Source of the DNA: an uncultured Bacilli bacterium
GTDB lineage: Bacteria; Bacillota_I; Bacilli_A; RF39; UBA660
Assembly (NCBI GenBank): GCA_910584255.1
Contig: CAJTXV010000001.1
Span: 17,130-81,129, forward strand
Reading direction: 5' to 3'
Length of the DNA stretch: 64,000 bases
A program made the position numbers and the translations under genes. The notes under the pieces are model-generated. The model saw only the letters and a list, made by a program, of their open reading frames with translations. It was not told the origin of the DNA and did no database searches. This document shows positions 1-36,401 of this stretch, in pieces (the stretch's first letter is position 1; the number at the start of each line of letters is the position of its first letter).

Positions 1-223
1 CCGTAACTGTCACACTAGCATATGATCCTTCCTTTATTTGGTCATTGGCTACTAAGTCGGTAAAGTCTTTGGCTTCTCCTAAATCTTTAGATGAAATTAT
101 ATATGCACAAGAAAATAAAATGATAGAAATTGCTAGAAGAATGAGTCCTGCCATTAAGCAACGTAAATTGAGTTTCAAACCTTGACTTAATTTTGAGTTT
201 TTCTTCAGTTCCTTTATATTCAT
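1..223 (-). CDS. Partial CDS (N-terminus only; gene continues beyond window start): putative lipoprotein with signal peptide
   Basis: Manual translation of the minus strand from ATG at 221-223 gives MNIKELKKNSKLSQGLKLNLRCLMAGLILLAISIILFSCAYIISS..., open to position 1. AGGAGG RBS 8 nt upstream (231-240). Lipobox-like ILFSC after a hydrophobic stretch. Confidence 0.5.
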   Translation of the reverse strand, partial: MNIKELKKNSKLSQGLKLNLRCLMAGLILLAISIILFSCAYIISSKDLGEAKDFTDLVANDQIKEGSYASVTVT

Positions 224-303
224 ATAAAATAGCCTCCTATATTATTATACTCAGTATAACACATTCTAGGTAAAAGTAAAATGAAAAAATAGACATTTCC
301 CTC

Positions 304-1176: not shown

Positions 1177-1249
1177 AGAAATCCCCCTAAATTATTGATT
1201 ATTGTACTACACGAAATAGAAAAATACAAGGAATTTTCTAGGATTTAGA

Positions 1250-2044: not shown

Positions 2045-2094
2045 GTACTAAAAGAGAATAATTAAACAAAAAATAAAGATATAAATTCATATCT

Positions 2095-3534: not shown

Positions 3535-3616
3535 GCTAGAATCATCCCTCTCTACTATCTATAGTAATTTTACCTTTTTCATATGAAAAAGTCAAAGAAA
3601 ATTCAAGATTCGGCAA

Positions 3617-4312: not shown

Positions 4313-4381
4313 GAGAAAATCCCCCTTCTATATACTCCTACTTATAATATACAAAAAAAAATTAAAAAACGTCTAAATTTT

Positions 4382-5188: not shown

Positions 5189-5213
5189 AAAAGAAAAAGA
5201 TTTAAGAAGTATC

Positions 5214-6104: not shown

Positions 6105-6112
6105 CTATATAA

Positions 6113-24296: not shown

Positions 24297-24602
24297 TTAT
24301 GGTTTTCTCTTTTTATGTTTTTCTAGATAAGCTTCATATCCGCCAATTAAATCTATTACTTGATATCCTATTTCTTGTAAGTGACTACAAATTTTTCTAC
24401 TTTTTTCTCCATGACTACAATATATATAATAAGTTTCCTCTTTTTTCAAATAATTTTCGGGCATCATTACTAAATAGGTATATGGAATATTTATTGCATT
24501 TGGAAGGTGTCCTAGTAGATATTGATATTTATCTCGAATATCAATTACATGATCATTAAATGTAAATGAATCGATATCCTGAATATCTAAAGAATCATAC
24601 AT
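24297..24602 (-). CDS. Rhodanese-like single-domain sulfurtransferase
   Basis: 101 aa with the active-site loop CSHGEKS and the characteristic DIRDKYQYLLGHLPNAINIP fold. Confidence 0.7.
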   Translation of the reverse strand: MYDSLDIQDIDSFTFNDHVIDIRDKYQYLLGHLPNAINIPYTYLVMMPENYLKKEETYYIYCSHGEKSRKICSHLQEIGYQVIDLIGGYEAYLEKHKKRKP

Positions 24603-24667: not shown

Positions 24668-27496
24668 TTAATCATCAAAGAAATCATCAAAGAACTGATC
24701 ATCTGTCACATCAATTTCTTTTGCTGGAATTTGTTCTTGATGAATAATTGCTTCAGTCGAATCTTTTGGATTCTCTTTTACAGGTTCCATTGACTGAGAA
24801 TTTACTTTTTCTTCTACATTTTCGATAGGAGAAGTAGTACTTTGTTCCCCAATTTTTTCTGGTTTGAAAGAAGAAGTAGATAATAAATCACTCATTGACA
24901 TCGCACGAGGTTTTGTGTCCATTTCCTTTTTTTGCTCTGGAAGAGACATAACTACATTTGATTCAGTTTCTTCTTTCTTCTTTGGTTTTGGTAATGGGAA
25001 ATCCATCTTCAAGTCAGAAGATGAGAAACTTGTCTTTGGTTTTTCATTTTCTATTTTCTCTTCCACTGATTCAGACTTCTTCTCCATCTTTGGTACTTTA
25101 AAATCCATTTTTAAATCAGAGGATGAGAATCCTGCTTTCGGTTTTGTTTCTTCTTCCTGTTTTGTTTCTAATTCAGGACTGTCCTTTGGTAATGGGGAGT
25201 CAGTTTTCAAATCCAATTGGGTCTGTACAACTGTGCCAGATTCCTCATTGCTTGGTGTCTCCGTTGTTTCCTCTATTGCTTTCTCTGGTTTTAGAAGCAT
25301 TTCTGTCTTTGTAGGTTCTACCGTTTTTTCCTTTATATCACTCGTAGAAGGGGTGATTTCTGGTTTATTTTCTTCTTTCTTTTCTTTTTCTTGTATAACT
25401 GCTTCTTGAACAGTATCTTTTTCCTTTGGCGCATCTTTTTGAGTCGTTGCTGCCTGTTCTTTCTTTTTCTTCTCTTCTGCTTCAATTTGAGCAATTTTAG
25501 CATCGATTTTCTTTACTAAATCATCTACATTAAAACCAGATTTCGCAAGTCTTGAACTACTGGAAATCCCGCTGTTACTTTGTGGCATATTAGGAAGTCC
25601 TGGAGGTGTCCCCATTCCAGATAATGGAGGCATTCCACCAAGTCCAATTGGCATATTCGATGGACGATTCATATCTGACATACCTGGTATATTTCCCATT
25701 CCAGGTATTCCTCCCATTGGAGGCAAATTCATTCCACCTGGAGTTCCTACAGCACCCTGTGGATTATTCATCATTTCCATTAATTTTTCTTTTTTCTTCT
25801 CTTTTACAAATTCGCGAATATCAAAGGTATTCACTTCTTGTTTTTCACGTGTTGGATATGTTGCTTTTGGATATTCTTTATCCCAGTGCATTTTAAAGTC
25901 TGGTGTAAATTTTGTTTTAAACGGTGCTTGACGAATACGCATGATAATTACTTCGAATTGTTTCATTCGCTGTAATTCACTAATTGTAACTAGTGGTGTA
26001 GAAGCTGTTTTATCGTCTTTCTTACTCTTGACTTCCCCACACATTTTAGAAATTTCTTCCAAGGCTTTTAATTCTGTTGTAATCAAATAAATAATGTTAC
26101 CACAGTTACCTTTAATTGTTTCCGCATTTTCTTTTCCATAGACTTGATCTAATTGCGCAAAGTTCTGAATAATCATCGTAAAACGAACTTGTCGAGAACG
26201 AGCAGCCGTAATCATTGTTGTAATATCTTTTAGTGGTGGCATGTTTGCAAATTCATCTAGTAAGAAGTTTGTACGAATTGGCAATTTCCCACCATGTTCT
26301 TGGGCAACACTAATTAGTGTCTCATAACACTGTTTTAATAGAATTGTTACTAAAGAGTGATAAGTTTTCTTTTCGTCTTGAATGACAATAAATAGTGCCG
26401 TCGGTTTTTCGCCGATGGTTTTTAAATCAAAATCACTATGAGATAACATTTCTGATAAGTTTTCACGAGATGCAAAGAGTTTAATTTTCTGTTTAAATAC
26501 AGAAATAATAGATCCTTTTGTCTCATTTGGAGCCATAATAGTTCCTGATGCATTTGTATAGGCAGCAGAAGAAGGGTCTTTGGTTTCAAAATAAGATTTA
26601 ATGTAAGTTCCTCCACCAAACTTTTCTTCTCCAACTGTAGTCATTAGACTAATCGTATTTAAGTTTACTTTATCTTCTGTTGTATCTTCAAACATTCCAA
26701 GAGCAAGTCCTGAAAAATAATCAGCGGACGTTTTTTCCCAGAAAGGGTCAGCATTCCCACTCTTTTCTTCATATAGAATATTGGCAGCAAGGTCATCTAG
26801 TAACTCGATTGCTTTATCCTGATTTCCTGATTTATAAATACGATATGGTAGAGAAAGAGGGTTCCATGCATTTCCTTGTTGTGGATCACGAAAGTTTAAT
26901 ATCAATACGTTATATCCCTTTTCACGTAGCATATTGGAAGTATTTTCATAAATCTCACCTTTCGGATCGGTGATAATCATGGACTCACGCTTTTTGGCTA
27001 GTACATTTACCGTTGGGAAAATTACCGTCTGGGTTTTACCAGAACCAGTCGCACCAATGACTAAACTATGATATTCTCCATTATCTACCCATACTTCATT
27101 ATCTTTTAGGATTAACGGAACTCCAGCAGCTTTCGTTAAATCTTCTCCTGGACGAATCATTGCCATTTTGTATCCTTGTTTCATTTCTTTTTCTTTACAC
27201 CAACGACTATATCCTTTATCTGACTTTTCTGTTGAGAACCCAATTCCTGATTCTCTTTCAAAAAAGTAAGAACTAACTGACATAAAAATTCCTGCTAAAA
27301 AGAGGAAAAATAAAACTAAAGTTGCAGCAATTCTACTAGGTGCAAAAGCAGGAAAAGGATTTAAACCATAAAAATGTCCCTCTAATGCGAGTGTTGGGAA
27401 GTTTAACACCCCAAGACATACGACGTATAGTAAAAAAAATGCAAAAATTACAAAAATTAATACATCAGTAGCATCCGCTTTAAATTTTAATTTCAT
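24668..27496 (-). CDS. Type IV secretion coupling protein (VirD4/TraG/TraD family) with long low-complexity C-terminal extension
   Basis: Two N-terminal TM helices, Walker A in the context HSLVIGATGSGKTQTVIFP...IITDPKGEIYE (TraG/VirD4 signature), Walker B LLDEFANM. C-terminal about 400 aa of M/G/P-rich repeats (GMNLPPMGGIPGMGNIPGM), a duplicated FSSSDLKMDF motif and an acidic DDQFFDDFFDD tail. Confidence 0.8.
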   Translation of the reverse strand: MKLKFKADATDVLIFVIFAFFLLYVVCLGVLNFPTLALEGHFYGLNPFPAFAPSRIAATLVLFFLFLAGIFMSVSSYFFERESGIGFSTEKSDKGYSRWCKEKEMKQGYKMAMIRPGEDLTKAAGVPLILKDNEVWVDNGEYHSLVIGATGSGKTQTVIFPTVNVLAKKRESMIITDPKGEIYENTSNMLREKGYNVLILNFRDPQQGNAWNPLSLPYRIYKSGNQDKAIELLDDLAANILYEEKSGNADPFWEKTSADYFSGLALGMFEDTTEDKVNLNTISLMTTVGEEKFGGGTYIKSYFETKDPSSAAYTNASGTIMAPNETKGSIISVFKQKIKLFASRENLSEMLSHSDFDLKTIGEKPTALFIVIQDEKKTYHSLVTILLKQCYETLISVAQEHGGKLPIRTNFLLDEFANMPPLKDITTMITAARSRQVRFTMIIQNFAQLDQVYGKENAETIKGNCGNIIYLITTELKALEEISKMCGEVKSKKDDKTASTPLVTISELQRMKQFEVIIMRIRQAPFKTKFTPDFKMHWDKEYPKATYPTREKQEVNTFDIREFVKEKKKEKLMEMMNNPQGAVGTPGGMNLPPMGGIPGMGNIPGMSDMNRPSNMPIGLGGMPPLSGMGTPPGLPNMPQSNSGISSSSRLAKSGFNVDDLVKKIDAKIAQIEAEEKKKKEQAATTQKDAPKEKDTVQEAVIQEKEKKEENKPEITPSTSDIKEKTVEPTKTEMLLKPEKAIEETTETPSNEESGTVVQTQLDLKTDSPLPKDSPELETKQEEETKPKAGFSSSDLKMDFKVPKMEKKSESVEEKIENEKPKTSFSSSDLKMDFPLPKPKKKEETESNVVMSLPEQKKEMDTKPRAMSMSDLLSTSSFKPEKIGEQSTTSPIENVEEKVNSQSMEPVKENPKDSTEAIIHQEQIPAKEIDVTDDQFFDDFFDD

Positions 27497-27511
27497 AACT
27501 AACCCTTCTTC

Positions 27512-28288
27512 CTACTGAATTGAATTTACTTTTCTTGATTTTATATAAACACTCATTACGATGATTCCAACAATACCTACTATAACTAAGATAGCACTAC
27601 CAAGTAAAATTAACAAGCGAAAATCAAATTTTTTGTGTGTTTTATTTAATAAATTTATTTGAATACTTTTATTATTATAGTTATTTTTATTGATTTTCCA
27701 TATGTATTCTCCATCCACTACTTCATCTGCATTATGATTTTCTACTTCATGGTTCGTTTTTAATCTAATTTTAATTTCTTCTAAAATATCATAGGTATCA
27801 AAGCAAAGATTTTTATTAGAAGTTGAAAGAATTACACCATCTTTATTTTCATTTTCTACGATGGAGAAATTTTTATAACAAGTTTGAATTCCAGGCATTT
27901 TTTTTAATGAATTTCGACTTTCATAAGAAATGGTCTTTTTAGTAGAAATTCCAAGTTTCCCAATATCACTTACTTTTTCTAATCCTTCAATTTTTGCATC
28001 TGGATCTATGGTTTTTAAATCTACTAATTCTCTAAATGTTAAACTCGAAGTATCAGGTTCTCCATCTAAAATTCCACAAGTACCATCGCTACATAGATTG
28101 GGATCCATATTAAAATCTATCTCTTCATGCGTGTTTTCTACGACTGGCTGATTCCATTTCAGTTCATCAGTTTCTAGTAATTCTCCGTTTACTTTAATTT
28201 GATCATCTTGAATTTCAATGTTATATTCTACATTACAACCAGTCAGTAGAAAGATGATTGCCATTAAGAATAGTATCTTTTTTTTCAT
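27512..28288 (-). CDS. Lipoprotein with C-terminal TM anchor (T4SS-associated; possible VirB8/TcpC-like role)
   Basis: Signal peptide with lipobox LLTGC and a C-terminal hydrophobic helix LLILLGSAILVIVGIVGIIVM. Located between the T4SS hydrolase and coupling-protein genes. Confidence 0.45.
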   Translation of the reverse strand: MKKKILFLMAIIFLLTGCNVEYNIEIQDDQIKVNGELLETDELKWNQPVVENTHEEIDFNMDPNLCSDGTCGILDGEPDTSSLTFRELVDLKTIDPDAKIEGLEKVSDIGKLGISTKKTISYESRNSLKKMPGIQTCYKNFSIVENENKDGVILSTSNKNLCFDTYDILEEIKIRLKTNHEVENHNADEVVDGEYIWKINKNNYNNKSIQINLLNKTHKKFDFRLLILLGSAILVIVGIVGIIVMSVYIKSRKVNSIQ

Positions 28289-28296
28289 ATATCCTC

Positions 28297-30858
28297 CTAG
28301 TATCCTGTAAATGAGAAGTGCATGTAGTCTTTTGAACTACTCCAGTTACCTCCCCAACCCCATCCATAGTTACTAAATGCTTTTACAACGGGTCCATTTG
28401 GTTCTATAGAGTATGGACTTTCTCCAGGTTTCCAGAAGGAACCGGCAATGACATGTCCATTTCGAATCATATAATTTTCATTGGCATTGATATCACAGGC
28501 AACTCCATAACTATGGTGAGAGGTTGTCTGTCTATTTCCTGCCATACCACGCCAGGAATAACAATAAGCATCTTTTACTGGGAACCCTGCATTTGCGATG
28601 GCTGTAAAAATATTTACAACATCACTTGCAATAGCCTGATGGACAGTAAGTCTTCCTGTTCTAGCATTTCCGTTAATATCTACGAGCGGTACACTAACTG
28701 TCGTTAAATACTTTTGCATTTCAGCAGAAGACGTTGGAAGTCCATCTGGGAATAAAAAGGCAAGTTTTTCATTCACATTTCCATTCTTTACTTCTTCTCC
28801 ACTACCACCACTAGAAATGCTTATGTTTCCTGTATAGAAGTAATTTAAAATTTCATGATAGTTAGAACCGTCTGCTGCCATATCTGCTGCTGCAATTTGA
28901 CTCATTCCTCTACCATGTCCACCAGCGGCACGACCTAAGTAACGATTAGAAATTGTGACAGTATGAGTTTCACCCGAAGGCAATTTTTTATATGGGCAAC
29001 TTGTTTTTCCTGGACAATTCCAAGAATCATATTGAGCTAAAATAACTTTTCCATCTACGGTAATTACTTCTCCTCTGGTTGAGTTTGCTGCTTCCCAAGA
29101 CTCAGTTGAATAACTTGGATTAAAGTTTTGGGCATTCGAACTATTATCAATTGCCTGTTCACATTGGTTAGTACTTGCAATTACATAACTTCTAGCCGCA
29201 ACTGCTAGAGCTTTTTTAGATTCCATTCCGAAATCTGCATACATTTCTGCTTCTACAACACCTGCAATATATTCTTCTAAATCATAGGTTCCTGCATCTT
29301 TTCCTACTACGGTTACTCCATCTGGGCAAAAATTACTTGTCGTTTGATAGGAATAAAGTTCTGAACAATCTCTACTTGGACCCATAATAGTATAAAGGTC
29401 ATAGATATTATCAATTAATTGATTTGCGGCTTCAAACCGCTCGCTTCCCTCTTCTGCATATCCTACTTGCTTGGTTAAATATTCACTATAGTAATCTTCC
29501 ACAAAAGAATCTAATAAATTCCAGTAGTAAACTCCATCTTCCATATTTTCCCAATCACCAATACTTAATTCCGCAAAGTCTGTATTACTGCTTGGAGTCG
29601 ATGGATCACAGACCCTTTTTTCTTTTTTTTCATCCCCATCTTCATCTTTGAATGTAGCTGCTGGTATATAATAGTAATAAGCATAATTTTTTTCTTTATT
29701 TGCGGCTTTTGTAAAGAAATTAAACAAAGTAGACTCTTTATCATTTCTTGCAACGAGTCTTAAATCTTCACTGTTTCTAAGGGGAATATCTGTAAACCAT
29801 TGATCCCAAAGACTGATATCCATACACTCTTTGGCAACATTTTCATCCGTTACAATGATTTCCCTTGCTTCTTCTCCATCTGCACAAATATCTTTATAAC
29901 TAGACTCGTAACAATGCGGTTTTCCTTCTTTATATAATCCATATTTTTTTCTTTTAATCTGCATATTAACTAATATGTCTACATATTTTTCCATTTTTCG
30001 GTAGTCTGCAGCTGTTAATACATCTTGTGATTCTTCACTACAAGACTCTAAATCTTCACAAGGTTCTTCCCCTTCATCTAAACCACTATTAAAGGCTTTA
30101 TCCACAATTAAAGTAGCATGTATTAAATTTACATCGACACAAACATGATATTTTTGATAAGCATTGTCCTGTGCATGTTTTAATGTTTCATAGTACTCTT
30201 TTTCTGCTTTTTCAGTTTCCTTATTTCCAATCTCGTTTCCTTCATAGTCCCCGTTAAAGAATCTTAAAATGCTCATTGCAGGAATTAGAATAATACTAAC
30301 TGCTGCCAGTATAATGAATATAAAACATCCACAACTTAGAATAGGCATAGGAAGAGAAGCAAATAACATTTTGGGAAGTCCACTGTTTTTATCTTTATCT
30401 CCAGTTGCGTCTCCACTTGCTGGTGAACTATTCTTGTTTTTAGAAAATTGATTATTAGATTCCTTTGCTGCTTGTTGTTGTGCTAGATTCCCCGTTTTGT
30501 TTGTAGCATCCTCTAATCCTTCTTTTTTTAATCCTTCTTTAGCAAGAGTTTCTTTGGGAAGAGAACCTGCTTGATTGGATACATCTCCAGATGCCATATC
30601 GATTCCTTTATCGGCCATATCTAGAGCTTTACTTTTATCTAGTGCTTTTGTTAAGTTTTTTGCACCAGGCGCTTTATTTACCATTTTTCCTGCTGCATTT
30701 TCAATTGCTTGTCCTGCTTTTGTTTTACTAGCGATATCATAGGCTTTCGTTCCAAGAGGTCCTCCAAAATAGGTAGCTGCGGCTTTCCCCGCTACATGGG
30801 CAGTTTTTTGACCCGCTTGTTCTTCTTCCTGTTTTTCTTTTAGTTCTTCTTCGTCCAT
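28297..30858 (-). CDS. T4SS-associated cell-wall hydrolase: membrane-anchored, SpoIID/LytB-like domain plus LAS/M15 (VanY-like) peptidase domain
   Basis: One TM helix (LFASLPMPILSCGCFIFIILAAV). SpoIID-type signatures EEYIAGVVEAEMYADF...ALAVAARSY and GHGRGMSQIAAADMAADGSNYHEILNYFYTG. C-terminal M15 motifs SHHSYGVACDIN and DYMHFSF. Confidence 0.75.
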   Translation of the reverse strand: MDEEELKEKQEEEQAGQKTAHVAGKAAATYFGGPLGTKAYDIASKTKAGQAIENAAGKMVNKAPGAKNLTKALDKSKALDMADKGIDMASGDVSNQAGSLPKETLAKEGLKKEGLEDATNKTGNLAQQQAAKESNNQFSKNKNSSPASGDATGDKDKNSGLPKMLFASLPMPILSCGCFIFIILAAVSIILIPAMSILRFFNGDYEGNEIGNKETEKAEKEYYETLKHAQDNAYQKYHVCVDVNLIHATLIVDKAFNSGLDEGEEPCEDLESCSEESQDVLTAADYRKMEKYVDILVNMQIKRKKYGLYKEGKPHCYESSYKDICADGEEAREIIVTDENVAKECMDISLWDQWFTDIPLRNSEDLRLVARNDKESTLFNFFTKAANKEKNYAYYYYIPAATFKDEDGDEKKEKRVCDPSTPSSNTDFAELSIGDWENMEDGVYYWNLLDSFVEDYYSEYLTKQVGYAEEGSERFEAANQLIDNIYDLYTIMGPSRDCSELYSYQTTSNFCPDGVTVVGKDAGTYDLEEYIAGVVEAEMYADFGMESKKALAVAARSYVIASTNQCEQAIDNSSNAQNFNPSYSTESWEAANSTRGEVITVDGKVILAQYDSWNCPGKTSCPYKKLPSGETHTVTISNRYLGRAAGGHGRGMSQIAAADMAADGSNYHEILNYFYTGNISISSGGSGEEVKNGNVNEKLAFLFPDGLPTSSAEMQKYLTTVSVPLVDINGNARTGRLTVHQAIASDVVNIFTAIANAGFPVKDAYCYSWRGMAGNRQTTSHHSYGVACDINANENYMIRNGHVIAGSFWKPGESPYSIEPNGPVVKAFSNYGWGWGGNWSSSKDYMHFSFTGY

Positions 30859-30893
30859 AATATCACCTGCCTTTACTACGGTTTATTTACTTC

Positions 30894-32681
30894 TTATAGA
30901 CCTCCACCACTACCGAAAGATTCTAATTCTTCTGGTGTTAGGGTTACATTAATCTGCATACGTCTATTTCCACAGACAAATAATGCTTCTCCTTGAGAGT
31001 AACGTTTGATACTTTCCTTTTCATTATCATTTAAATCTATTAAACGTCCTAAATCTTCTACAGCTTGCTTTTTCAGTCCCATTACAAGGTAATATGAAGC
31101 ATTATCAAAGATTGCTTTTCCTTGCGTGATTACCTGAGGAGCAGCAAAATCGCTTGGTTGTTGTGTAATAATAATTGAACCAGTATTATATTTACGTGCA
31201 CGTCTTTGTACTTGTGCTAAGAAATCTGCTCCCAAAGAGTTTTGATCTGATAATAGTACATGGGCTTCATCTACCATTAAAATCGTATTAATATCTTTAT
31301 TTAAACAAAGACCCCATGCGTATTTTAAAACGTTAAAGAATAAAGCATTACGAATATTATCTGCAGAATTCATTAGTTCTTTGATATTAAATACAATGAA
31401 ATCCGTATCAGATGAAACTGTGGTATGCCCATCGAAATAGTATTTTAATTCTTGTGTTAGTGGACGAATTTTCAATTCTAGTTTTTCCATAATCATTCTT
31501 TCTTGTGTTCTATCTGTCATAGAAAGAAGTCTTCCTTTAATAGTTGCATACACATCTGAAAATGTTGGATAATCATTTGGTTGATAGTTATAGAAATTAC
31601 TATTAAAATCAATTCCGAAACGACGATACGTATCTTGAACCACTTCACTAAACATCGTTAAAACATCTTCTTCGATGGATGGATCATAGTATTTCATGAA
31701 ACCTTTTAGGAATTGTAGTGTACGAGTTAATACAGTATAACCAAGGCCTTCTTTGATTTCATCTTCATCCGCATCAATTACTACTTGGAGTGGATTTACC
31801 ATACCGTATTCTCCACCTTTACCAAGATCGATACTTTCTCCACCATATGCCCTAGTCATCTCAGAAAGTTCATCTTCAGGGTCAATTGCAACGATTTGAT
31901 ATCCATTACGAATATGAGAACGAAGCATTAATTTGGCTGCAGTTGATTTACCAGAACCTGAAGTACCTAAGATAATTAGGTTAGCATTATTTCTGTTATT
32001 TTCTTTTCTCATCTGATAAGCAAATTGATTAAATAGAATGACTCCACCTGAGAAATCTACTCCAAGTAAAGTAGATAACCCTGGATCTTTAATGCTATCA
32101 AAAATAAATGGATACATAGCTGCCAAAGTTGGTGTTGGAATTGGTGTTCCAATTCTTTGTTCTACATCTTGAGATGGGAAAATTGGAATAATTGATTTTA
32201 ATATTTTTTCTTGTTCAAATCGTAAAGATAAACCTCTCATTTCCATTGCATCTAAGTAATTCTTAATATTTACTTTCTTCATTTCTAGTTCTTCTTTCGA
32301 ATCTGCTAGAATCATGATGTGCATTTGAAAGTCAAAAATTTTAGATTGAGAGGATGCAAGCATGGTAACAAAGGATTCTAACGATTCAAAATCAAGTCGA
32401 ATTCTTTCTTTAATGGTTTGATCTTTTTCTTCTTGGTATCTTGTCTTTAAATCTGCAATTTGTTTATTTAACATCTTAGACATCATAGAAAATGGTACTG
32501 GAATATGTTTCGCAACAATTTTAACTCCAGACATGCTAGTTAATGATGCTAAAAATCCTGGATAAATTGTTTTTGGATAAGAAACAACGGTTACGATTGT
32601 TGCATACTTATCACTTACTGTAAAATCACTTAGCCCAAAGTGTAATCCCTTTGGTGCTACTTCTGAACGAAATCCCATCAT
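30894..32681 (-). CDS. VirB4-family T4SS ATPase (ATPase/DUF87 portion)
   Basis: Walker A LGTSGSGKSTAAKLM, Walker B ILMVDEAHVL and the VirB4-like C-terminal region. The start overlaps the stop of the upstream ORF by ATGA. Confidence 0.75.
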   Translation of the reverse strand: MMGFRSEVAPKGLHFGLSDFTVSDKYATIVTVVSYPKTIYPGFLASLTSMSGVKIVAKHIPVPFSMMSKMLNKQIADLKTRYQEEKDQTIKERIRLDFESLESFVTMLASSQSKIFDFQMHIMILADSKEELEMKKVNIKNYLDAMEMRGLSLRFEQEKILKSIIPIFPSQDVEQRIGTPIPTPTLAAMYPFIFDSIKDPGLSTLLGVDFSGGVILFNQFAYQMRKENNRNNANLIILGTSGSGKSTAAKLMLRSHIRNGYQIVAIDPEDELSEMTRAYGGESIDLGKGGEYGMVNPLQVVIDADEDEIKEGLGYTVLTRTLQFLKGFMKYYDPSIEEDVLTMFSEVVQDTYRRFGIDFNSNFYNYQPNDYPTFSDVYATIKGRLLSMTDRTQERMIMEKLELKIRPLTQELKYYFDGHTTVSSDTDFIVFNIKELMNSADNIRNALFFNVLKYAWGLCLNKDINTILMVDEAHVLLSDQNSLGADFLAQVQRRARKYNTGSIIITQQPSDFAAPQVITQGKAIFDNASYYLVMGLKKQAVEDLGRLIDLNDNEKESIKRYSQGEALFVCGNRRMQINVTLTPEELESFGSGGGL

Positions 32682-33217
32682 ACTGACACCACCCCAAAAT
32701 TAAAACTTCTTCCACCATTTAAGAAACTATCTAAAATAATTCTTAAATCTTCATTACTGGTTTGTCTTGCAATTAATCCTGCTTGTGCCAAGCCACTGAT
32801 TAACATACGAATCTTCTTTTGAAGCATTTCCAGATTCTTTTCTTTAAATAGAATATAATACTCTGTATCTACTACATTATTGTTCATAAAGCTATTTCCT
32901 TTTTGAATATCTTGACTGATAATTTTACGAATCGCAGGATTTGTCTGATTTTGATATTGAAGTTGGAGTGTTGATAGATACATAGAGATATCTACTGGTC
33001 GGTCTGCAACTACGAGCCAGAACTCAAAATCAATTAAGTTGTAGAAATTTTTTAAAGCAATCATAATATTACTTTGGGAAATTTCATCCAAGATAAAGAT
33101 ATTTCTTGGAGTAATTTTAACTCCACTTACTTTTGTCTGATCTGGAAGAATAATCATTCCATTTGAAATGGATTGAATATTAATCCAATTTTCTGTCCAT
33201 TGTCCATTGTTGTTCAT
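32678..33217 (-). CDS. Probable N-terminal domain of VirB4 encoded as a separate, translationally coupled ORF
   Basis: 179-aa ORF directly between the VirB3-like gene and the VirB4 ATPase. Its TGA stop overlaps the ATG of the ATPase ORF (gtcagtATGAtggga). Together they total about 770 aa, the usual VirB4 size. Confidence 0.4.
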   Translation of the reverse strand: MNNNGQWTENWINIQSISNGMIILPDQTKVSGVKITPRNIFILDEISQSNIMIALKNFYNLIDFEFWLVVADRPVDISMYLSTLQLQYQNQTNPAIRKIISQDIQKGNSFMNNNVVDTEYYILFKEKNLEMLQKKIRMLISGLAQAGLIARQTSNEDLRIILDSFLNGGRSFNFGVVSV

Positions 33218-33506
33218 CGCGTATACACCAACCTTTCCATAGATATCTTCTTCTACTTGTAAAATATTTATAAATCTCGATTAATAACTGTAATACGTTG
33301 TGGTAATAAGCAACGGGAGCTACCAGTAATGCTGATAGAATGGCAGGGGAAACAGCAACTACGGCAGCCCAAGTTTCTTGCATAGGCATTAATGCTACTA
33401 AAATAATGGTAATTACCACCCCGACTCCGAAGATACCTAAATCAACGGGTCGAAATAATCCAAAGATATATTGACCTCTTTTTGCATTGGCAGGGATTAA
33501 ATACAT
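33180..33506 (-). CDS. VirB3-like small membrane protein of T4SS
   Basis: 108 aa with two hydrophobic helices (IFGVGVVITIILVALMP; AAVVAVSPAILSALLVAPVAYY). Lies immediately upstream of VirB4, the conserved B3-B4 order. Confidence 0.4.
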   Translation of the reverse strand: MYLIPANAKRGQYIFGLFRPVDLGIFGVGVVITIILVALMPMQETWAAVVAVSPAILSALLVAPVAYYHNVLQLLIEIYKYFTSRRRYLWKGWCIRDEQQWTMDRKLD

Positions 33507-33524
33507 AATAGTTCACACTCCTTT

Positions 33525-35504
33525 TTATTTATTTTTCTTAGAAGCAGCAACCGCTGCAATATAATCGGCATCGGATTTTGTTTGAAGACTTGCAGCTTTA
33601 ATTAACTTCATCTGATCATCCATTTTCTTAAATCCATCTATAATTGCTTCATCTACACCTTCAATACCATTTAAATCAGCCTTATCGATTTTATCCTTAA
33701 TGGAATTCAATTCTGCAAGTAAATTAGCATTGCCGTCAGTATATGATGTATTTCCTTTTTGCATTTGATCTCTAAATACAGCTTGTTCTCTCTTTTCTAA
33801 TTCTGACACCAAGTAGTTTCCCTCCGAAACAGAAATACCCGTCATACCACCAAAATCAAAGGTACTTTGCCCTGCTGCTTTGGCTTGATCTAAGACACCT
33901 TGTAAATCTTTTGATTTACCAGTGATTGATGAATAATCTACATTTTGTCCTTTAGAAGAGTCATAGTGCTCTAATTTCTCACCAAATCCAAGCGATTGAA
34001 TATAAGAATCTGCTCCTAAAGAAACAGCATTATATTTTCCTTTTGTAGCCTCTTTCTTTTCTTCCGCACTGTAACTATCATGAGCTTTCGTTAATTCGTC
34101 CCAATCGTCTACATTCTGCTTTTTCGCTGCTCCTATTCCTTGGCCAGCAAAGGTACTAAAGAACCATTCTCGTGCTTGATGACCAGCAGTTACTCCAGAA
34201 ACTCGATCTGCGGCAAGTTCTGCATTTTTTGCTCGAATGGATCCAAGTACTTTCGTATAATCACTCTTCTCTCCTGCTGATTTATATCCAGCACGCCCAC
34301 CACTAATAGCACTAGAAATTCCTGACCCAAAGTTTTGAAGTAAATTTCCTTCACCTTTCGCAGCGGTAGCAAATCCAGCAACTCCTGAACCAACCATTCC
34401 AGCTGTTACAGCAGTTGTAGTTAATAATCCTGCAAGTCCTGAACCAAACTCACTATCTTTTAATCCAAGCGCTTTTTTAACAAACTTTGGTGCTTGGAAA
34501 GCAAATAGAAGCAGTCCAATAATGACAAATACCATTCCAAAAATTTTAGTGTCCCCTGCTAATCCAAGGAACGTTTTTCCGACATCGCTAATATCAACGA
34601 TTAACAAATCAACCAGTTCAATTGCAAAGAATAAAGCTCCAAAATGGATTAATAAATCTAGATAAGTAGTAATAAACATTTTCATATAAACGGAAGTTCT
34701 TCCACCATCTTTTGTAGATTTTGGATCCATATAACTGATAATTGGAACAGGTGCAATCATTTTTAGAAGAACCAACTTAAAAGCACGAATCGCAACTTGA
34801 ATTCCAATAATAAATAGAAGAGCTAAAATCGGTAATATACAAATCAATGCCCCTATAAAATTGAATTCGTATTTATATACGCTTTTATTATCACTACAGG
34901 CCTCTCCTGCCATGGTGACTGCTGTATCTAAAATATTTTTAGAGTCTTCTCCCTCATCGGAATCACCGCAATCCTCATTTTTATGAAAGAAACCTGCAAA
35001 AATTGTATTTGCAATGTTTTCTCCTACACTCACCGCACTTCCTGAATTCAATTTATCATCAGAGTCTAATACAGTATCAGAATCTAAAATCACTTTACCA
35101 ATTGTACTTAATAATGGGGCTTGAATTTTCGAAAGAAATGGAAAAACCGTTTGTGGTACAACGATTAGTAATACTAGCATTGTAATAAAGCGAGTTACAA
35201 GTTTTCCAGCCCCCACTTCTTTGTCTGTAATTTTATCGGGATTCGCAAAATAAGTAATTAAAGAGATTGTAACTTTAAATAACATAAATACACCAATAAT
35301 TACATAGAAACGGTTTTGAATTCCCTCATAAAGTGGAGTAAACGTACTTGAATTATCAAGTCCTGCAACTGCATATACAATTTCTAAAAAAAAGCCAACT
35401 AACTTATAAAGTGCAGCAAACATTAAGGCGAGTGCCTGACGAATATAAGTAAAAAATAAGCTTCGGTCCAATTCGCCAATTAACATTAAATTATTTAAAC
35501 TCAT
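33525..35504 (-). CDS. VirB6-like polytopic T4SS channel protein (TcpH/ConG/Tn916 Orf15-like)
   Basis: 659 aa with at least 6 TM helices in the N-terminal two-thirds and a long hydrophilic Gly/Ala/Ser-rich C-terminal region. Positioned in the T4SS operon. Confidence 0.5.
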   Translation of the reverse strand: MSLNNLMLIGELDRSLFFTYIRQALALMFAALYKLVGFFLEIVYAVAGLDNSSTFTPLYEGIQNRFYVIIGVFMLFKVTISLITYFANPDKITDKEVGAGKLVTRFITMLVLLIVVPQTVFPFLSKIQAPLLSTIGKVILDSDTVLDSDDKLNSGSAVSVGENIANTIFAGFFHKNEDCGDSDEGEDSKNILDTAVTMAGEACSDNKSVYKYEFNFIGALICILPILALLFIIGIQVAIRAFKLVLLKMIAPVPIISYMDPKSTKDGGRTSVYMKMFITTYLDLLIHFGALFFAIELVDLLIVDISDVGKTFLGLAGDTKIFGMVFVIIGLLLFAFQAPKFVKKALGLKDSEFGSGLAGLLTTTAVTAGMVGSGVAGFATAAKGEGNLLQNFGSGISSAISGGRAGYKSAGEKSDYTKVLGSIRAKNAELAADRVSGVTAGHQAREWFFSTFAGQGIGAAKKQNVDDWDELTKAHDSYSAEEKKEATKGKYNAVSLGADSYIQSLGFGEKLEHYDSSKGQNVDYSSITGKSKDLQGVLDQAKAAGQSTFDFGGMTGISVSEGNYLVSELEKREQAVFRDQMQKGNTSYTDGNANLLAELNSIKDKIDKADLNGIEGVDEAIIDGFKKMDDQMKLIKAASLQTKSDADYIAAVAASKKNK

Positions 35505-35510
35505 GCACTA

Positions 35511-36329
35511 CTACCTCCAATTCTGTATGACCATACCAATAAGTCCACATAATGAGGCATCTTTTCCTGTCGCATCACTATAGGCTTGTAGAATATATTT
35601 TAAAATTGATGGAACTAAGAATATGGCAATTACCACAATACAACGTTTTGTAAATTTAATTCCAGCTTTTGATAATGCATCTTTATCATTAGAAAGGATA
35701 GGACCTGAAAAATCCATTACACCAAAAATGATTAATGCAATTGGCATAATAATTTTTAAATAACCATATATTTCTTGAATGTATGGGACTAAATCTGAAA
35801 TTACCCCACAATTACCTAAAGATTTATTTTTCTTTTCTGTTGGAGTTTTTGTTGCTGGTTTACTTTCTGTTTTACTTATTTTTTTACCTGTATAGGAATT
35901 ACAGCGAAATGTTTCTGCACCATTCTTTAAGCCATTTCCTTTACAGCAAATTTTACTACTTTGTGTGGTAGTACTCGCATCAGTTGGGGATGTATAACTT
36001 TTTTGAAATGTCCAATTGCCATCACTTAAATTACAAGGAATATCCGTAAGTTCTTTACTACCATCACTTGTACTTTCTGCAACTGAAGTATAATAATCAC
36101 AATAATACTTTCCGCTTTTTTCACAACAAACTCTTTTTACTATCTCAAGATCATAATCTTTATTTTCACCTGCTTGTACACTTTCTGTATGATCAAATTT
36201 CCAAATATTTGAATTCACTCCACTAGAACTACAACTTCCACTCGATGTAACGGCATACACATAATTTATACTGAAAAAGAACGTCATAATTCCAAATACT
36301 AATAACATTCCTAATTTCTTTCTATTCAT
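35511..36329 (-). CDS. Secreted Cys-rich protein with C-terminal two-TM hairpin, first gene of T4SS operon (possible pilin-like/VirB2-analogous component)
   Basis: Signal peptide, about 10 Cys in the ectodomain and C-terminal helices IIMPIALIIFGVMDF / CIVVIAIFLVPSILKYIL. Confidence 0.35.
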   Translation of the reverse strand: MNRKKLGMLLVFGIMTFFFSINYVYAVTSSGSCSSSGVNSNIWKFDHTESVQAGENKDYDLEIVKRVCCEKSGKYYCDYYTSVAESTSDGSKELTDIPCNLSDGNWTFQKSYTSPTDASTTTQSSKICCKGNGLKNGAETFRCNSYTGKKISKTESKPATKTPTEKKNKSLGNCGVISDLVPYIQEIYGYLKIIMPIALIIFGVMDFSGPILSNDKDALSKAGIKFTKRCIVVIAIFLVPSILKYILQAYSDATGKDASLCGLIGMVIQNWR

Positions 36330-36372: not shown

Positions 36373-36401
36373 ATTATATCAGAACAAAAAACATTTGTAA
36401 A
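36373..36401 (-). promoter_or_regulatory. Putative sigma-70 promoter of the T4SS operon
   Basis: Minus-strand TTTACA-N17-TATAAT ending about 40 nt upstream of the ATG at 36329. Confidence 0.45.

What the first reader, a model, noticed from the sequence alone, without database searches (positions are those of the whole stretch)
28297..30858. T4SS hydrolase with unusual SpoIID-like + M15 peptidase two-domain architecture
Gram-positive conjugation systems usually carry a VirB1 analogue combining a lysozyme-like lytic transglycosylase with CHAP or NlpC/P60. This 853-aa membrane-anchored protein instead pairs a clear SpoIID/LytB domain (EEYIAGVVEAEMYADF...AVAARSY; GHGRGMSQIAAADMAADGSNYHEILNYFYTG) with a LAS/M15 VanY-like peptidase domain (SHHSYGVACDIN ... 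DYMHFSF). It is a glycan-strand cleaver plus peptide-stem cleaver built from different folds.
Basis: partly seen in the sequence, partly recalled or inferred. Interest (0 to 1): 0.55.

Follow-up and report, generated by a model that had tools for sequence, protein, structure and literature searches.

The report
Mosaic cell-wall hydrolase of a chromosomal T4SS
The gene encodes a membrane-anchored cell-wall-cutting enzyme (a SpoIID-type glycan cutter plus a zinc M15 peptide cutter) belonging to a DNA/protein-export machine that, unusually, is a fixed and very strongly conserved part of the chromosome in a group of uncultured gut bacteria rather than part of a mobile element.

Summary
ORF 28297-30858 (-) encodes an 853-aa protein with a SpoIID/LytB domain and a Peptidase_M15_4 domain, both above curated cut-offs. 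The catalytic Glu (E538) and the Zn triad (H782/D789/H847) are intact and invariant, and both domains are under purifying selection. It lies between VirB4 and VirD4 in a compact T4SS operon, so "T4SS hydrolase" holds.

"Unusual" needs qualification. The protein is a mosaic:
- A family-specific tail-TM-ectodomain scaffold, found in only 60 clusters among 1.84 billion representatives.
- A SpoIID module, the usual glycan cutter in this T4SS family (20 of 26 species).
- A swappable peptidase cassette: M15_4, VanY, NlpC/P60 or CHAP-like.

The M15 cassette is 60% identical to hydrolases that follow VirB4 in MobL-type ICEs, although the ATPases of those ICEs are only 26-27% identical.

The larger surprise is the context. 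The T4SS has no relaxase or integrase within 64 kb. It sits beside rhodanese in nearly every locus that extends past VirD4, and beside TypA in most, across 26 species. Its ATPases are as constrained as TypA (ω about 0.01-0.04). This resembles the Patescibacteria chromosomal T4SS more than a conjugative element.

Verdict: a new variant of a known kind, of moderate to high interest.

The parts
28297..30858 (-). Whole hydrolase gene (853 aa plus stop codon), the VirB1-equivalent of the T4SS operon
   Evidence: ORF; domains; a Shine-Dalgarno-like AGGTGA 5 nt upstream of the ATG.
30364..30858 (-). Cytoplasmic N-terminal tail (aa 1-165). It carries the conserved motif AGQKTAHVAGKAAATYFGG (aa 15-33); the remainder is low-complexity.
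   Evidence: Alignment A1 has invariant or near-invariant K25, A27, G33 and G36. A similar 'SKTAKVAG' motif occurs in the sister-lineage protein P0075. ω is 0.11-0.30. The cytoplasmic location is inferred from the single TM segment that follows.
30244..30363 (-). Single transmembrane anchor region (aa ~166-205)
   Evidence: Hydropathy scan finds one segment at aa 164-203.
29329..30243 (-). Family-specific extracellular scaffold domain (aa 206-510). It is Cys-rich, ends at 'MGPSxxC', and its fold is unassigned.
28804..29328 (-). SpoIID/LytB-type lytic transglycosylase module (aa 511-685). The catalytic Glu E538 codon is at 29245-29247; the GHGRGMSQ motif is at aa 647-654.
   Evidence: profiles. 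(alignment to SpoIID structures 5i1t, 5txu, 4rwr). (Foldseek: 5i1t E 1.1e-6, 4rwr, SleC). E538 is invariant in A3. ω is 0.05-0.15. Codon checked.
28300..28773 (-). M15_4 (LAS zinc peptidase) cassette (aa 696-853). Zn ligand codons: H782 at 28513-28515, D789 at 28492-28494, H847 at 28318-28320.
   Evidence: PF13539, 62.8 bits. (alignment to the L-Ala-D-Glu peptidases Ply500 2vo9 and LysB4 6akv). Ligands invariant in A3. 60% identical to the ICE hydrolase P0056 over aa 696-853. ω is 0.055-0.094. Codons checked.
35511..36329 (-). First gene of the block: signal peptide, Cys-rich ectodomain and two C-terminal TM helices; possibly VirB2/T4SS-pilin-like
   Evidence: topology. (29% identity over 52 aa to a 113-aa protein of L009 that hits PF18895 T4SS_pilin just below its cut-off). 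The assignment is tentative.
33525..35504 (-). VirB6/TrbL-like polytopic membrane protein (659 aa)
   Evidence: PF19597 TrbL_4 at 28 bits against a cut-off of 27. Weak match to NF045890 pLS20_p028. Multiple TM segments. Fast-evolving, ω 0.13-0.39.
33180..33506 (-). VirB3/TcpE-like small membrane protein with about two predicted TM helices (108 aa)
   Evidence: Topology. Weak TcpE PF12648 match, E 0.02. Conserved position in all loci.
32678..33217 (-). Separate N-terminal piece of a split VirB4 (179 aa)
   Evidence: Matches positions 100-276 of NF045975 VirB4_plasma. Overlaps the VirB4 ATPase ORF by 4 nt. The equivalent gene in L027/L031 is labelled PF26593 TraC-like. The ORF is present at the same position in the loci that cover it.
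30894..32681 (-). VirB4 ATPase body (595 aa)
   Evidence: PF19044 and PF12846. NF045975 (Mycoplasma-ICE-type VirB4) E 6e-104. 82-99% identical across species. ω is 0.007-0.036.
27512..28288 (-). Lipoprotein with a C-terminal TM helix (258 aa), function unknown; present at this position in most loci
   Evidence: Lipobox 'LLTGC' and a C-terminal hydrophobic segment. Detected in 21 of 26 loci at 25-84% identity.
24668..27496 (-). VirD4 coupling protein (942 aa): core at aa 1-560 plus a ~380-aa low-complexity C-terminal tail ending in an acidic DDQFFDDFFDD
   Evidence: PF02534, E 1.2e-59. NF045973 at 309 bits against a cut-off of 250. Core ω 0.012-0.037, tail ω 0.21-0.37.
36373..36401 (-). Best sigma-70-like promoter match (TTTACA-17-TATAAT with an extended TG), 44 nt upstream of the first gene of the block
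   Evidence: The number of hits in the region is not above shuffles, so this is suggestive only.

Best explanation
The 853-aa protein is the dedicated peptidoglycan-opening subunit (functional VirB1 equivalent) of a minimal Gram-positive T4SS. The operon encodes a VirB2-like protein, VirB6, VirB3, a split VirB4, the hydrolase, a lipoprotein and VirD4.

Topology (inferred). A conserved N-terminal tail stays in the cytoplasm and probably docks to the channel or its ATPases. One TM helix anchors the protein. A 300-aa family-specific ectodomain acts as a spacer or scaffold. Two enzymes then work on the wall.

Chemistry (inferred from homology). The LAS/M15 zinc peptidase cuts stem peptides. Its nearest solved relatives are L-Ala-D-Glu endopeptidases. 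This uncross-links and largely strips the glycan strands. The SpoIID-type lytic transglycosylase then cleaves the bared strands into anhydro-muropeptides. In sporulation, SpoIID acts only on strands already denuded by SpoIIP. The fusion would therefore recreate the SpoIIP-then-SpoIID order in one polypeptide and confine lysis to the site of the secretion channel.

The protein is an evolutionary mosaic. The scaffold and the SpoIID module are inherited with the T4SS. The peptidase cassette is exchangeable, and here it appears to have been exchanged with hydrolases of MobL-type ICEs (direction unknown).

The T4SS it serves appears to be a chromosomal, vertically inherited system, not a mobile element.
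For: Shown directly:
- ORF and domains above curated cut-offs.
- E538 aligns with the Glu of the 'GEM' motif of SpoIID 5i1t. E101 of that enzyme is required for activity (PMC6221140).
- The SpoIID fold is recovered.
- H782/D789/H847 align with the Zn ligands of Ply500.
- All four residues are invariant in 15 orthologues.
- Both modules are under purifying selection, ω 0.05-0.15.
- A single TM segment.
- The gene sits 35 nt after VirB4 and 8 nt before the next gene, in a tightly packed block.
- The same position is kept in 26 species-level genomes.

Cassette logic:
- Every SpoIID-bearing homologue classified by Pfam also carries a peptide-bond or amidase-type module: M15_4, VanY, NlpC/P60 or CHAP.
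- This fits SpoIID's dependence on prior stem-peptide removal.

Mosaicism:
- The M15 module is 60% identical to ICE hydrolase P0056, while VirB4 and VirD4 of that ICE are 26-27% identical.
- The sister-lineage hydrolase P0075 shares the SpoIID module (46%) in the same operon position.

Chromosomal context:
- No relaxase, integrase or replication gene in 64 kb.
- dS of the T4SS genes is similar to dS of the flanking housekeeping genes.
Against: - No biochemistry exists. The order of action and the bond cleaved by the M15 domain are inferred from distant homologues (2vo9 E 0.004; 6akv E 0.006).
- An L-Ala-D-Glu cut leaves L-Ala on MurNAc, not a fully denuded strand. It is unknown whether this SpoIID module accepts such strands.
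- The AF2 model of the M15 zinc site has low confidence (pLDDT below 50 at aa 771-783). Foldseek did not retrieve any LAS structure.
- In PrgK of pCF10, two of the three hydrolase-like domains are regulatory rather than catalytic. Intact motifs therefore do not prove activity.
- The ~165-aa SpoIID module is shorter than sporulation SpoIID. It fails the SpoIID equivalog model (75 bits against a cut-off of 234.75).
- The role of the 300-aa scaffold is unknown.
Confidence: 0.7

Rival explanations
1. The enzymatic modules are aimed mainly at the cell wall of a partner, recipient or prey cell rather than the producer's own wall. They would act like a phage tail lysin at the tip of the T4SS. The rapid cassette swapping would then reflect adaptation to different target walls.
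For: - Species whose TypA differs by only about 12% carry different enzyme cassettes, and surface parts diverge 60-70%. Such closely related producers seem unlikely to differ much in their own wall chemistry (my inference).
- The 300-aa ectodomain could serve as an extended stalk.
- The nearest solved relatives of the M15 module are phage endolysins.
Against: - The protein is anchored in the producer's membrane by an N-terminal TM helix.
- All characterised Gram-positive VirB1 homologues act on the donor wall.
- No region reaches ω > 1 at whole-region level.
- The two roles are not mutually exclusive.
Confidence: 0.15
2. Only one of the two modules is catalytic. The other has become a peptidoglycan-binding or regulatory domain, as reported for the LytM and CHAP domains of PrgK.
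For: - The PrgK precedent.
- The SpoIID module is truncated relative to sporulation SpoIID and scores far below the equivalog cut-off.
- The model of the M15 zinc-site loop has low confidence.
Against: - The catalytic Glu and all three Zn ligands are invariant in 15 orthologues.
- Both modules have ω of 0.15 or less.
- The peptidase slot is always filled by a family with an intact catalytic fold type.
Confidence: 0.1
3. The block is part of a classical integrative conjugative element whose relaxase, oriT and integrase lie outside the window. On this view the hydrolase is an ordinary conjugation VirB1 analogue.
For: - VirD4, VirB4 and VirB6 belong to conjugation-type families (NF045973, NF045975, PF19597).
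- Coupling proteins usually imply a DNA or relaxase substrate.
- Relaxases can be encoded far from the T4SS genes (PMC12102498).
Against: - No relaxase, integrase or replication gene in 64 kb.
- The flanks are housekeeping genes (TypA, SMC, tRNA synthetases).
- The same junction with rhodanese, and in most loci with TypA, is kept across 26 species and extends to a sister lineage.
- The ATPases have housekeeping-level constraint, and their dS equals that of flanking genes.
- There is no compositional break.
Confidence: 0.1
4. The gene is a sporulation or housekeeping cell-wall hydrolase (a SpoIID/LytB paralogue) that merely happens to lie inside the T4SS block.
For: - The SpoIID/LytB domain is best known from sporulation.
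- A sister-lineage locus has the sporulation gene yunB nearby.
Against: - The gene is embedded between VirB4 and VirD4 in every locus.
- Its N-terminal scaffold occurs only in proteins of this architecture.
- Relatives replace SpoIID with the glucosaminidase+CHAP pairing typical of T4SS hydrolases.
- The SpoIID equivalog test fails.
Confidence: 0.03

Closest known systems
PrgK (pCF10) and TraG (pIP501): Gram-positive VirB1-like T4SS hydrolases, DELTA and ALPHA classes
   Same: - Encoded inside the T4SS operon.
- N-terminal cytoplasmic segment, a single TM anchor and several extracellular cell-wall-hydrolase domains.
- Combine a glycan-cleaving and a peptide-cleaving module.
- With three extracellular domains and a long cytoplasmic tail, the topology is closest to the DELTA class.
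   Different: - None of the domain families is shared. Here they are SpoIID (not SLT/muramidase) and M15_4 (not CHAP/LytM), plus a 300-aa scaffold with no relatives outside this family.
- The system it serves is chromosomal and lacks a nearby relaxase.
SpoIID-SpoIIP (DMP) engulfment machinery of endospore formers
   Same: - The same SpoIID/LytB catalytic domain, with the catalytic Glu and the GHG.GMSQ motif.
- The same logic of pairing a stem-peptide remover with a lytic transglycosylase that needs stripped strands (PMC6221140).
   Different: - Here the two activities are fused in one polypeptide.
- The peptide cutter is a LAS zinc peptidase rather than a SpoIIP amidase/endopeptidase.
- The protein fails the SpoIID equivalog model and sits in a T4SS operon, not a sporulation regulon.
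Ply500 / LysB4 / T5-type L-alanyl-D-glutamate endopeptidases (LAS, M15)
   Same: The SxHxxGxAxD ... DYxHF motifs and the Zn ligands align residue for residue.
   Different: - Those are soluble phage endolysins with wall-binding domains. Here the module is the C-terminal cassette of a membrane-anchored T4SS protein.
- Sequence similarity is low (E about 0.004), so bond specificity is not established.
M15_4 hydrolases (~413 aa) encoded directly after VirB4 in MobL-relaxase ICEs of gut Firmicutes (loci L030, L031); uncharacterised
   Same: - The C-terminal ~160 aa are 60% identical to aa 696-853 of the window protein, including a ~75-aa pre-domain.
- The same operon position, after VirB4.
   Different: - No SpoIID domain and no scaffold domain.
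- Their T4SS ATPases are only 26-27% identical.
- Their elements carry a relaxase, integrase or recombinase and ArdC.
Mycoplasma ICE (ICEA/Mbov_0397-type) minimal T4SS
   Same: The VirB4 halves match the VirB4_plasma model best. The component set is minimal: VirD4, VirB4, VirB6-like and VirB3-like proteins.
   Different: Mycoplasma ICEs are mobile, lack any VirB1-like hydrolase because there is no wall, and have an unsplit VirB4. The score here is below the equivalog cut-off (348 against 590 bits).
Patescibacteria (CPR) chromosomal T4SS
   Same: A monoderm, MPF_FATA-related, chromosomally encoded T4SS without an associated relaxase, with possible VirB2-like pilin genes and peptidase/lysozyme genes beside virB4.
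   Different: - The hosts are Bacilli MAGs, not Patescibacteria.
- Essentiality, an epibiotic lifestyle and membership of the Patescibacteria VirB4 clade are all untested.
- The hydrolase architecture described here is not reported there.

Membership tests
SpoIID/LytB domain family (PF08486, TIGR02669) | Profile score above the curated cut-off | tested here: met
   PF08486 51.3 bits against 23. TIGR02669 86.3 bits against 83.3.
SpoIID/LytB domain family (PF08486, TIGR02669) | Catalytic glutamate (E101 in C. difficile SpoIID) and the C-terminal GHG.GMSQ motif | tested here: met
   E538 aligns with the Glu of the 'GEM' motif of 5i1t, and GHGRGMSQ aligns with GHGVGMSQ. E538 is invariant in A3. 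The role of E101 is from PMC6221140. The mapping to residue number 101 relies on the motif, not on verified chain numbering.
SpoIID/LytB domain family (PF08486, TIGR02669) | SpoIID fold | tested here: met
   Foldseek of the AF2 model: 5i1t E 1.1e-6, 4rwr E 3.6e-6, SleC 9h68 E 1e-3, all at probability 1.0. TM scores are low (0.3-0.4) because the query model has two domains.
SpoIID/LytB domain family (PF08486, TIGR02669) | Lytic transglycosylase activity restricted to peptide-free glycan strands | not testable with these tools
   Requires a muropeptide LC-MS assay.
Sporulation protein SpoIID proper (TIGR02870 equivalog) | Full-length equivalog score at or above the cut-off | tested here: not met
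   75.1 bits against a cut-off of 234.75. The protein is a SpoIID-domain protein, not an orthologue of SpoIID.
Peptidase M15 / LAS zinc peptidases (PF13539 Peptidase_M15_4) | Profile score above the curated cut-off | tested here: met
   62.8 bits against 25, covering profile positions 3-69 of 70.
Peptidase M15 / LAS zinc peptidases (PF13539 Peptidase_M15_4) | His-x6-Asp ... His zinc triad | tested here: met
   H782, D789 and H847 align with chain positions 92/99/145 of 2vo9. These correspond to H80/D87/H133 if the chain carries a 12-residue offset; the ligand numbering is from my own recollection of the Ply500 structure paper. The residues are invariant in A3. Codons verified.
Peptidase M15 / LAS zinc peptidases (PF13539 Peptidase_M15_4) | LAS fold | tested here: inconclusive
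   The AF2 model has pLDDT below 50 at aa 771-783, and no LAS structure appeared among the Foldseek hits.
Peptidase M15 / LAS zinc peptidases (PF13539 Peptidase_M15_4) | Bond specificity (L-Ala-D-Glu, D-Ala-D-Ala or cross-bridge) | not testable with these tools
   The nearest solved relatives are L-Ala-D-Glu peptidases, but at E of about 0.004 only.
Gram-positive T4SS VirB1-like peptidoglycan hydrolases | Encoded within a T4SS gene cluster next to VirB4 | tested here: met
   35 nt downstream of VirB4. The same position in 26 species and a sister lineage.
Gram-positive T4SS VirB1-like peptidoglycan hydrolases | Membrane anchor with extracellular enzymatic domain(s) | tested here: met
   A single hydrophobic segment at aa 164-203, upstream of all enzymatic domains. 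The orientation is predicted, not shown.
Gram-positive T4SS VirB1-like peptidoglycan hydrolases | Uses the canonical domain families (SLT/GH23 or muramidase/glucosaminidase plus CHAP, NlpC/P60 or LytM) | tested here: not met
   No such Pfam hits in this protein. Scaffold homologues in other species do carry Glucosaminidase, CHAP or NlpC/P60.
Gram-positive T4SS VirB1-like peptidoglycan hydrolases | Required for T4SS assembly or substrate transfer | not testable with these tools
   Needs genetics in an uncultured organism or a heterologous system.
Conjugative element (ICE or plasmid) T4SS | Relaxase/oriT and integration or replication module linked to the T4SS | tested here: not met
   None among the ORFs of at least 90-100 aa scanned across the 64-kb window. 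The rest of the genome could not be examined.
Conjugative element (ICE or plasmid) T4SS | Variable insertion site or patchy distribution, with evolutionary history decoupled from the host | tested here: not met
   A fixed junction with rhodanese, and in most loci TypA, across the 26 species. dS and ω of the ATPases equal those of flanking housekeeping genes. Mean identity: VirB4 0.88, VirD4 0.87, TypA 0.88.
Patescibacteria-type chromosomal, non-conjugative T4SS | Chromosomal T4SS lacking an associated relaxase | tested here: met
   within the 64-kb window and the 20-kb loci only.
Patescibacteria-type chromosomal, non-conjugative T4SS | VirB2-like pilin genes in the locus | tested here: inconclusive
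   PF18895 T4SS_pilin matches in distant loci fall just below the cut-off (23.5 against 26.6 bits). The C-terminus of window orf272 is 29% identical over 52 aa to that protein.
Patescibacteria-type chromosomal, non-conjugative T4SS | VirB4 belongs to the Patescibacteria clade; host is a Patescibacterium | tested here: not met
   The host MAGs are labelled Bacilli, Bacillales or 'Tenericutes'. The best VirB4 model is the Mycoplasma-ICE type. No phylogeny with Patescibacteria sequences was made.

The most novel reading that the evidence does not exclude
This lineage of uncultured gut Bacilli has domesticated a minimal MPF_FATA-type T4SS into a core chromosomal organelle. It has no visible relaxase and keeps a fixed position. 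Its ATPases are under housekeeping-level constraint, while its surface parts and hydrolase cassettes diversify rapidly. It would serve a non-conjugative, contact-dependent function such as relaxase-independent chromosomal exchange, effector delivery, or nutrient or DNA acquisition from neighbouring cells. It would be a second, independent monoderm case alongside the Patescibacteria T4SS, which the 2025 review calls unique. The swappable SpoIID/peptidase hydrolase would be its wall-breaching tool, tuned to different partner walls.
Probability: 0.35. Interest if true: 0.8.

Novelty: new variant of a known kind. Interest (0 to 1): 0.58.

Why it matters
- **Hydrolase repertoire.** Current classifications of Gram-positive VirB1 analogues (ALPHA, BETA and DELTA classes with SLT, MUR, CHAP and LytM domains) do not include SpoIID or M15 enzymes. 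Profile sets built on them could therefore overlook such hydrolases. The data here show SpoIID as the usual glycan cutter of a whole T4SS family, and M15_4 as a recurrent T4SS hydrolase in ICEs.

- **A natural experiment.** The family fuses a stem-peptide cutter to a lytic transglycosylase that is known to need stripped strands. Five or more interchangeable peptidase solutions sit on one scaffold. This makes the "who prepares the substrate for whom" question directly testable with recombinant domains.

- **The system it serves.** This T4SS is as conserved as a translation GTPase and is chromosomally fixed in uncultured gut Bacilli. If it is not conjugative, it bears on the long-standing question of whether Gram-positive T4SSs have functions beyond DNA transfer. 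It could also hint at the lifestyle of these organisms.

Tried and rejected
1. tblastn of the hydrolase against PLSDB plasmids gave one partial hit: an M15 region in an SLH protein of Monoglobus. There is no plasmid-borne equivalent.
2. Literature searches for SpoIID with T4SS, conjugation or VirB1 gave nothing relevant. RF39 plus T4SS gave nothing relevant.
3. Fold assignment of the 300-aa scaffold failed.
   - A PDB profile search found nothing, and BFVD found nothing.
   - The afdb50 library was unavailable.
   - Pfam at E ≤ 10 gave only noise.
   - I do not claim a cryptic lysozyme domain.
4. Foldseek of the two-domain C-terminal model did not retrieve LAS peptidases. The M15 assignment rests on sequence.
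5. A Spearman correlation of VirB4/VirD4 identity against TypA identity, intended as a co-phylogeny test, was weak (0.41 and 0.13). The identity range is narrow at 0.84-0.99. I rely instead on synteny and on dS/ω.
6. I tried to place the lineage in a named order through UBA7057 and 'Scybalousia' in papers. This gave only a Bacteroidales homonym. NCBI gives 'Bacilli incertae sedis; Ca. Alloscybalousia'.
7. The promoter and terminator scan was not above chance overall.
8. The search with the C-terminal module did not re-list the full-length orthologues P0001-P0012. The absence of SpoIID+M15_4 fusions elsewhere in that list is therefore weak negative evidence only.
9. I rejected a decayed-remnant reading. 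All genes are intact in all loci and strongly constrained.

Full report
**1. The observation**

All quoted peptides are present.

Pfam finds SpoIID (PF08486, aa 525-600, 51.3 bits, cut-off 23) and Peptidase_M15_4 (PF13539, aa 775-849, 62.8 bits, cut-off 25). NCBIfam finds the SpoIID_LytB domain model above its cut-off (86.3 against 83.3 bits). The sporulation SpoIID equivalog is far below its cut-off (75 against 234.75 bits). The protein therefore carries a SpoIID-type domain but is not an orthologue of SpoIID.

A sequence search of the PDB returns the three SpoIID structures (5i1t, 5txu, 4rwr; E about 1e-10 to 1e-7) and the L-Ala-D-Glu peptidase Ply500.

**2. Catalytic residues**

- *SpoIID module.* 'DLEEYIAGVVEAEM' aligns with 'DMENYLCGVLAGEM' of C. 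difficile SpoIID, and 'GHGRGMSQ' aligns with 'GHGVGMSQ'. The Glu of this motif is the catalytic residue. E101 of the C. difficile enzyme is required for activity in vitro and for sporulation (PMC6221140). Here it is E538.
- *M15 module.* 'SHHSYGVACD' aligns with 'SNHNYGVAVD', and 'WGGNWSSSKDYMHF' aligns with 'WGGDWKSFKDYPHF' of Ply500. This puts H782, D789 and H847 on that enzyme's zinc ligands. LysB4, another L-Ala-D-Glu endopeptidase, also matches.
- *Conservation.* All four residues are invariant in 15 orthologues. Their codons were checked.
- *Fold.* An AlphaFold model of aa 500-853 (pLDDT 74.9) retrieves SpoIID structures and the SleC lytic transglycosylase by Foldseek. It retrieves no LAS structure, because the zinc-site loop is poorly modelled.
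- *Selection.* Both modules are under purifying selection against four close relatives: SpoIID ω 0.05-0.15 and M15 ω 0.055-0.094.

**3. Anatomy of the protein**

It is not a two-domain protein. The layout is:

| Region | Residues | Evidence |
|---|---|---|
| N-terminal tail with the conserved motif AGQKTAHVAGKAAATYFGG | 1-165 | |
| Single hydrophobic anchor | ~164-203 | |
| Cys-rich ectodomain ending 'MGPSxxC' | 206-510 | |
| SpoIID module | 511-685 | |
| Short Gly/Ser linker | ~686-695 | |
| M15 cassette | 696-853 | |

An exhaustive phmmer search of 1.84 billion representatives finds this ectodomain in only 60 clusters. Nearly all are proteins of 830-1100 aa with the domain at the same position. 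It is a scaffold specific to this protein family.

**4. Modularity**

Homologues keep the scaffold but change the enzymes. Module combinations across the 26 species-level genomes:

| Module combination | Species | Loci |
|---|---|---|
| SpoIID + M15_4 | 7 | L001-L007 |
| SpoIID + VanY | 1 | L012 |
| SpoIID + NlpC/P60 | 4 | L008, L009, L010, L019 |
| SpoIID + CHAP/NlpC-like | 8 | L013-L018, L020, L025 |
| Glucosaminidase + a C-terminal region with no Pfam match (CHAP in some metagenomic homologues) | 6 | L011, L021-L024, L026 |

L001-L005 and L010 were assigned by similarity to Pfam-classified neighbours rather than scanned directly.

SpoIID is thus the usual glycan cutter of the family, and every Pfam-classified SpoIID member also carries a peptide-bond cutter.

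That pairing makes mechanistic sense. SpoIID enzymes cleave only strands from which SpoIIP has removed the stem peptides (PMC6221140).

*The M15 cassette.* Its closest relatives are ~413-aa proteins that carry only M15_4. Two of them (P0056, P0047) are encoded directly after VirB4 in genuine conjugative elements. L030 carries a MobL relaxase, a NikA-like protein, an integrase, VirD4, TrbL_4, ArdC and a serine recombinase. L031 shows the same VirD4-TrbL_4-VirB4-hydrolase-ArdC order. The cassette (aa 696-853) is 60% identical to P0056, whereas the VirB4 and VirD4 of that element are 26-27% identical to the window's. This is the signature of cassette exchange between unrelated T4SSs.

*The SpoIID module.* It is shared (46% identity) with a 585-aa SpoIID+CHAP hydrolase that lacks the large scaffold. 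That protein occupies the same operon position in a sister lineage whose VirB4 is 73% identical.

**5. The system it belongs to**

On the minus strand the block reads, in order:
- orf272: signal peptide, Cys-rich region and two C-terminal TM helices; weakly T4SS-pilin-like
- VirB6/TrbL_4
- a VirB3/TcpE-like protein with about two predicted TM helices
- a split VirB4: a 179-aa N-terminal piece and a 595-aa ATPase, overlapping by 4 nt
- the hydrolase
- a lipoprotein
- VirD4

Gene spacings run from -38 to +35 nt. The VirB4 halves best match the Mycoplasma-ICE VirB4 model. VirD4 passes the CD1115-family cut-off. The nearest plasmid VirB4 is 27.6% identical.

Nothing in the 64-kb window is a relaxase, integrase, recombinase or replication gene. 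The neighbours are rhodanese, TypA/BipA, a P-type ATPase, SMC, GlnRS, IleRS, PNPase, sortases and LPXTG pilins. There is no compositional break.

Across the 26 species-level genomes the block keeps the same gene order. It is followed by rhodanese in nearly every locus that extends beyond VirD4, and by TypA in most. The sister lineage also has rhodanese after VirD4.

Conservation and selection:

| Gene | Identity to window | Mean pairwise identity | ω (four close relatives) | dS (L001 comparison) |
|---|---|---|---|---|
| TypA (yardstick) | 85-98% | 0.88 | 0.012-0.026 | 0.77 |
| VirB4 | 82-99% | 0.88 | 0.007-0.036 | 0.63 |
| VirD4 | 77-98% | 0.87 (aa 1-540) | 0.012-0.037 (core, aa 1-560) | 0.69 (core) |
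| P-type ATPase (flank) | 72-90% | not computed | 0.06-0.08 | 0.90 |
| Hydrolase | 30-85% | 0.41 (first 500 aa) | 0.08-0.18 (whole protein) | 1.16 |
| VirB6 | 29-78% | 0.34 | 0.13-0.39 | 0.98 |

The block therefore looks like a vertically inherited chromosomal operon under strong selection, not a mobile element or a decaying remnant.

The nearest published parallel is the Patescibacteria T4SS. It is chromosomal, mostly relaxase-less, related to monoderm conjugation systems, and essential for epibiotic growth. A 2025 review describes it as unique among monoderms (PMC12102498, PMC12857230). I could not examine whole genomes, so a distant relaxase is not excluded.

**6. Mechanism**

*Shown:*
- the domain identities
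- intact, invariant and constrained active sites
- one TM segment
- the operon position
- the cassette pattern

*Inferred:*
- The tail is cytoplasmic and docks to the channel.
- The ectodomain spaces the enzymes into the wall.
- The M15 peptidase cuts stem peptides. It probably cuts at L-Ala-D-Glu, by analogy with its nearest solved relatives.
- The SpoIID module then cleaves the stripped strands, opening a local gap for the T4SS.

The fusion would be a single-chain version of the SpoIIP-then-SpoIID sequence.

*Uncertain:*
- the bond specificity of the M15 domain
- whether SpoIID tolerates MurNAc-L-Ala stubs
- whether one module is regulatory, as in PrgK
- whether the target is the producer's wall or a partner's

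**7. Comparison and novelty**

Functionally the protein is a Gram-positive VirB1 analogue. Its topology is closest to the DELTA class (PrgK): a long cytoplasmic tail, a TM anchor and three extracellular domains. It shares none of the domain families of the described classes.

I found no report of SpoIID or M15 domains in T4SS hydrolases.

The architecture is one state of a modular family, and M15_4 hydrolases are common in one family of ICEs.

I rate it a new variant of a known kind. The more novel element is the domesticated T4SS around it, which I rate separately as the novel case.

Noticed in passing
window 24668-36329 (-); loci L001-L026: The whole T4SS block is chromosomally fixed next to rhodanese, and in most loci TypA, across 26 species. 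No relaxase or integrase occurs within 64 kb. The ATPases are as conserved as TypA (ω about 0.01-0.04), while VirB6, orf272, the lipoprotein and the hydrolase scaffold diverge 3-5 times faster.
   Followed up: yes
window 30894-33217 (-): VirB4 is split into a 179-aa N-terminal ORF and a 595-aa ATPase ORF that overlap by 4 nt (ATGA). Both pieces are detected in the loci that cover the region. The equivalent small ORF is labelled PF26593 TraC-like in L027 and L031.
   Followed up: partly
window 24297-24602 (-); L027 14973-15248: A ~100-aa rhodanese gene follows VirD4 (65-nt gap here) in nearly every locus that extends beyond VirD4, and in the sister lineage where other flanks differ. It may be a functional part of the operon rather than a neighbour.
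   Followed up: no
window 24668-25816 (-), VirD4 aa 561-942: VirD4 carries a ~380-aa low-complexity Pro/Gly/Met- and Lys/Glu-rich C-terminal tail that ends in the acidic motif DDQFFDDFFDD. It evolves much faster (ω 0.21-0.37) than the core and could be a substrate- or adaptor-docking tail.
   Followed up: partly
loci L006-L026, positions ~200-5300 (e.g. L009 230-5311): More distant species have extra conserved genes upstream of VirB6: a 261-aa polytopic protein, one or two 173-aa proteins with an N-terminal TM segment, a ~335-aa soluble protein, a 113-aa PF18895 T4SS_pilin-like protein and a ~450-aa version of orf272. The window's clade lacks all but a shortened orf272.
   Followed up: partly
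[not shown]
   Followed up: partly
window 12584-20950 (-): A giant 2788-aa protein with 17 matched stretches of the cadherin-like beta-sandwich domain, two ALK/LTK glycine-rich domains and a C-terminal type I dockerin. It sits just downstream of the orf349 gene that follows TypA.
   Followed up: no
window 3617-10491 (-): A sortase-dependent pilus locus: three sortase genes, an LPXTG backbone pilin (GramPos_pilinBB + SpaA) and a 708-aa SpaA/SHIRT/Flg_new adhesin. It confirms a walled Gram-positive host.
   Followed up: no
window 50439-54062 (-): A 1207-aa surface protein combining VWA, DUF285 ('Mycoplasma protein of unknown function') and Listeria-Bacteroides repeats.
   Followed up: no
window 48331-48666 (-) and 54685-55005 (-): Two short ORFs that match only part of their families. 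One is a 111-aa piece covering the last 25 positions of the ABC_tran profile; the other is a 106-aa Bro-N piece. They may be gene remnants.
   Followed up: no
locus L022 (CAYRDW010000065.1): A 5.3-kb contig binned as 'uncultured Muribaculaceae bacterium' carries this Bacilli-type T4SS (VirB4 90% identical to the window). It is probably a mis-binned contig.
   Followed up: no
loci L030 and L031: A family of gut ICEs has the gene order VirD4-TrbL_4-small genes-VirB4-M15_4 hydrolase-DUF5688-ArdC. L030 additionally shows a MobL relaxase, a NikA-like protein, an integrase and a serine recombinase. The first ~250 aa of its hydrolase have no Pfam domain, so its glycan-cleaving partner (if any) is unidentified.
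   Followed up: partly
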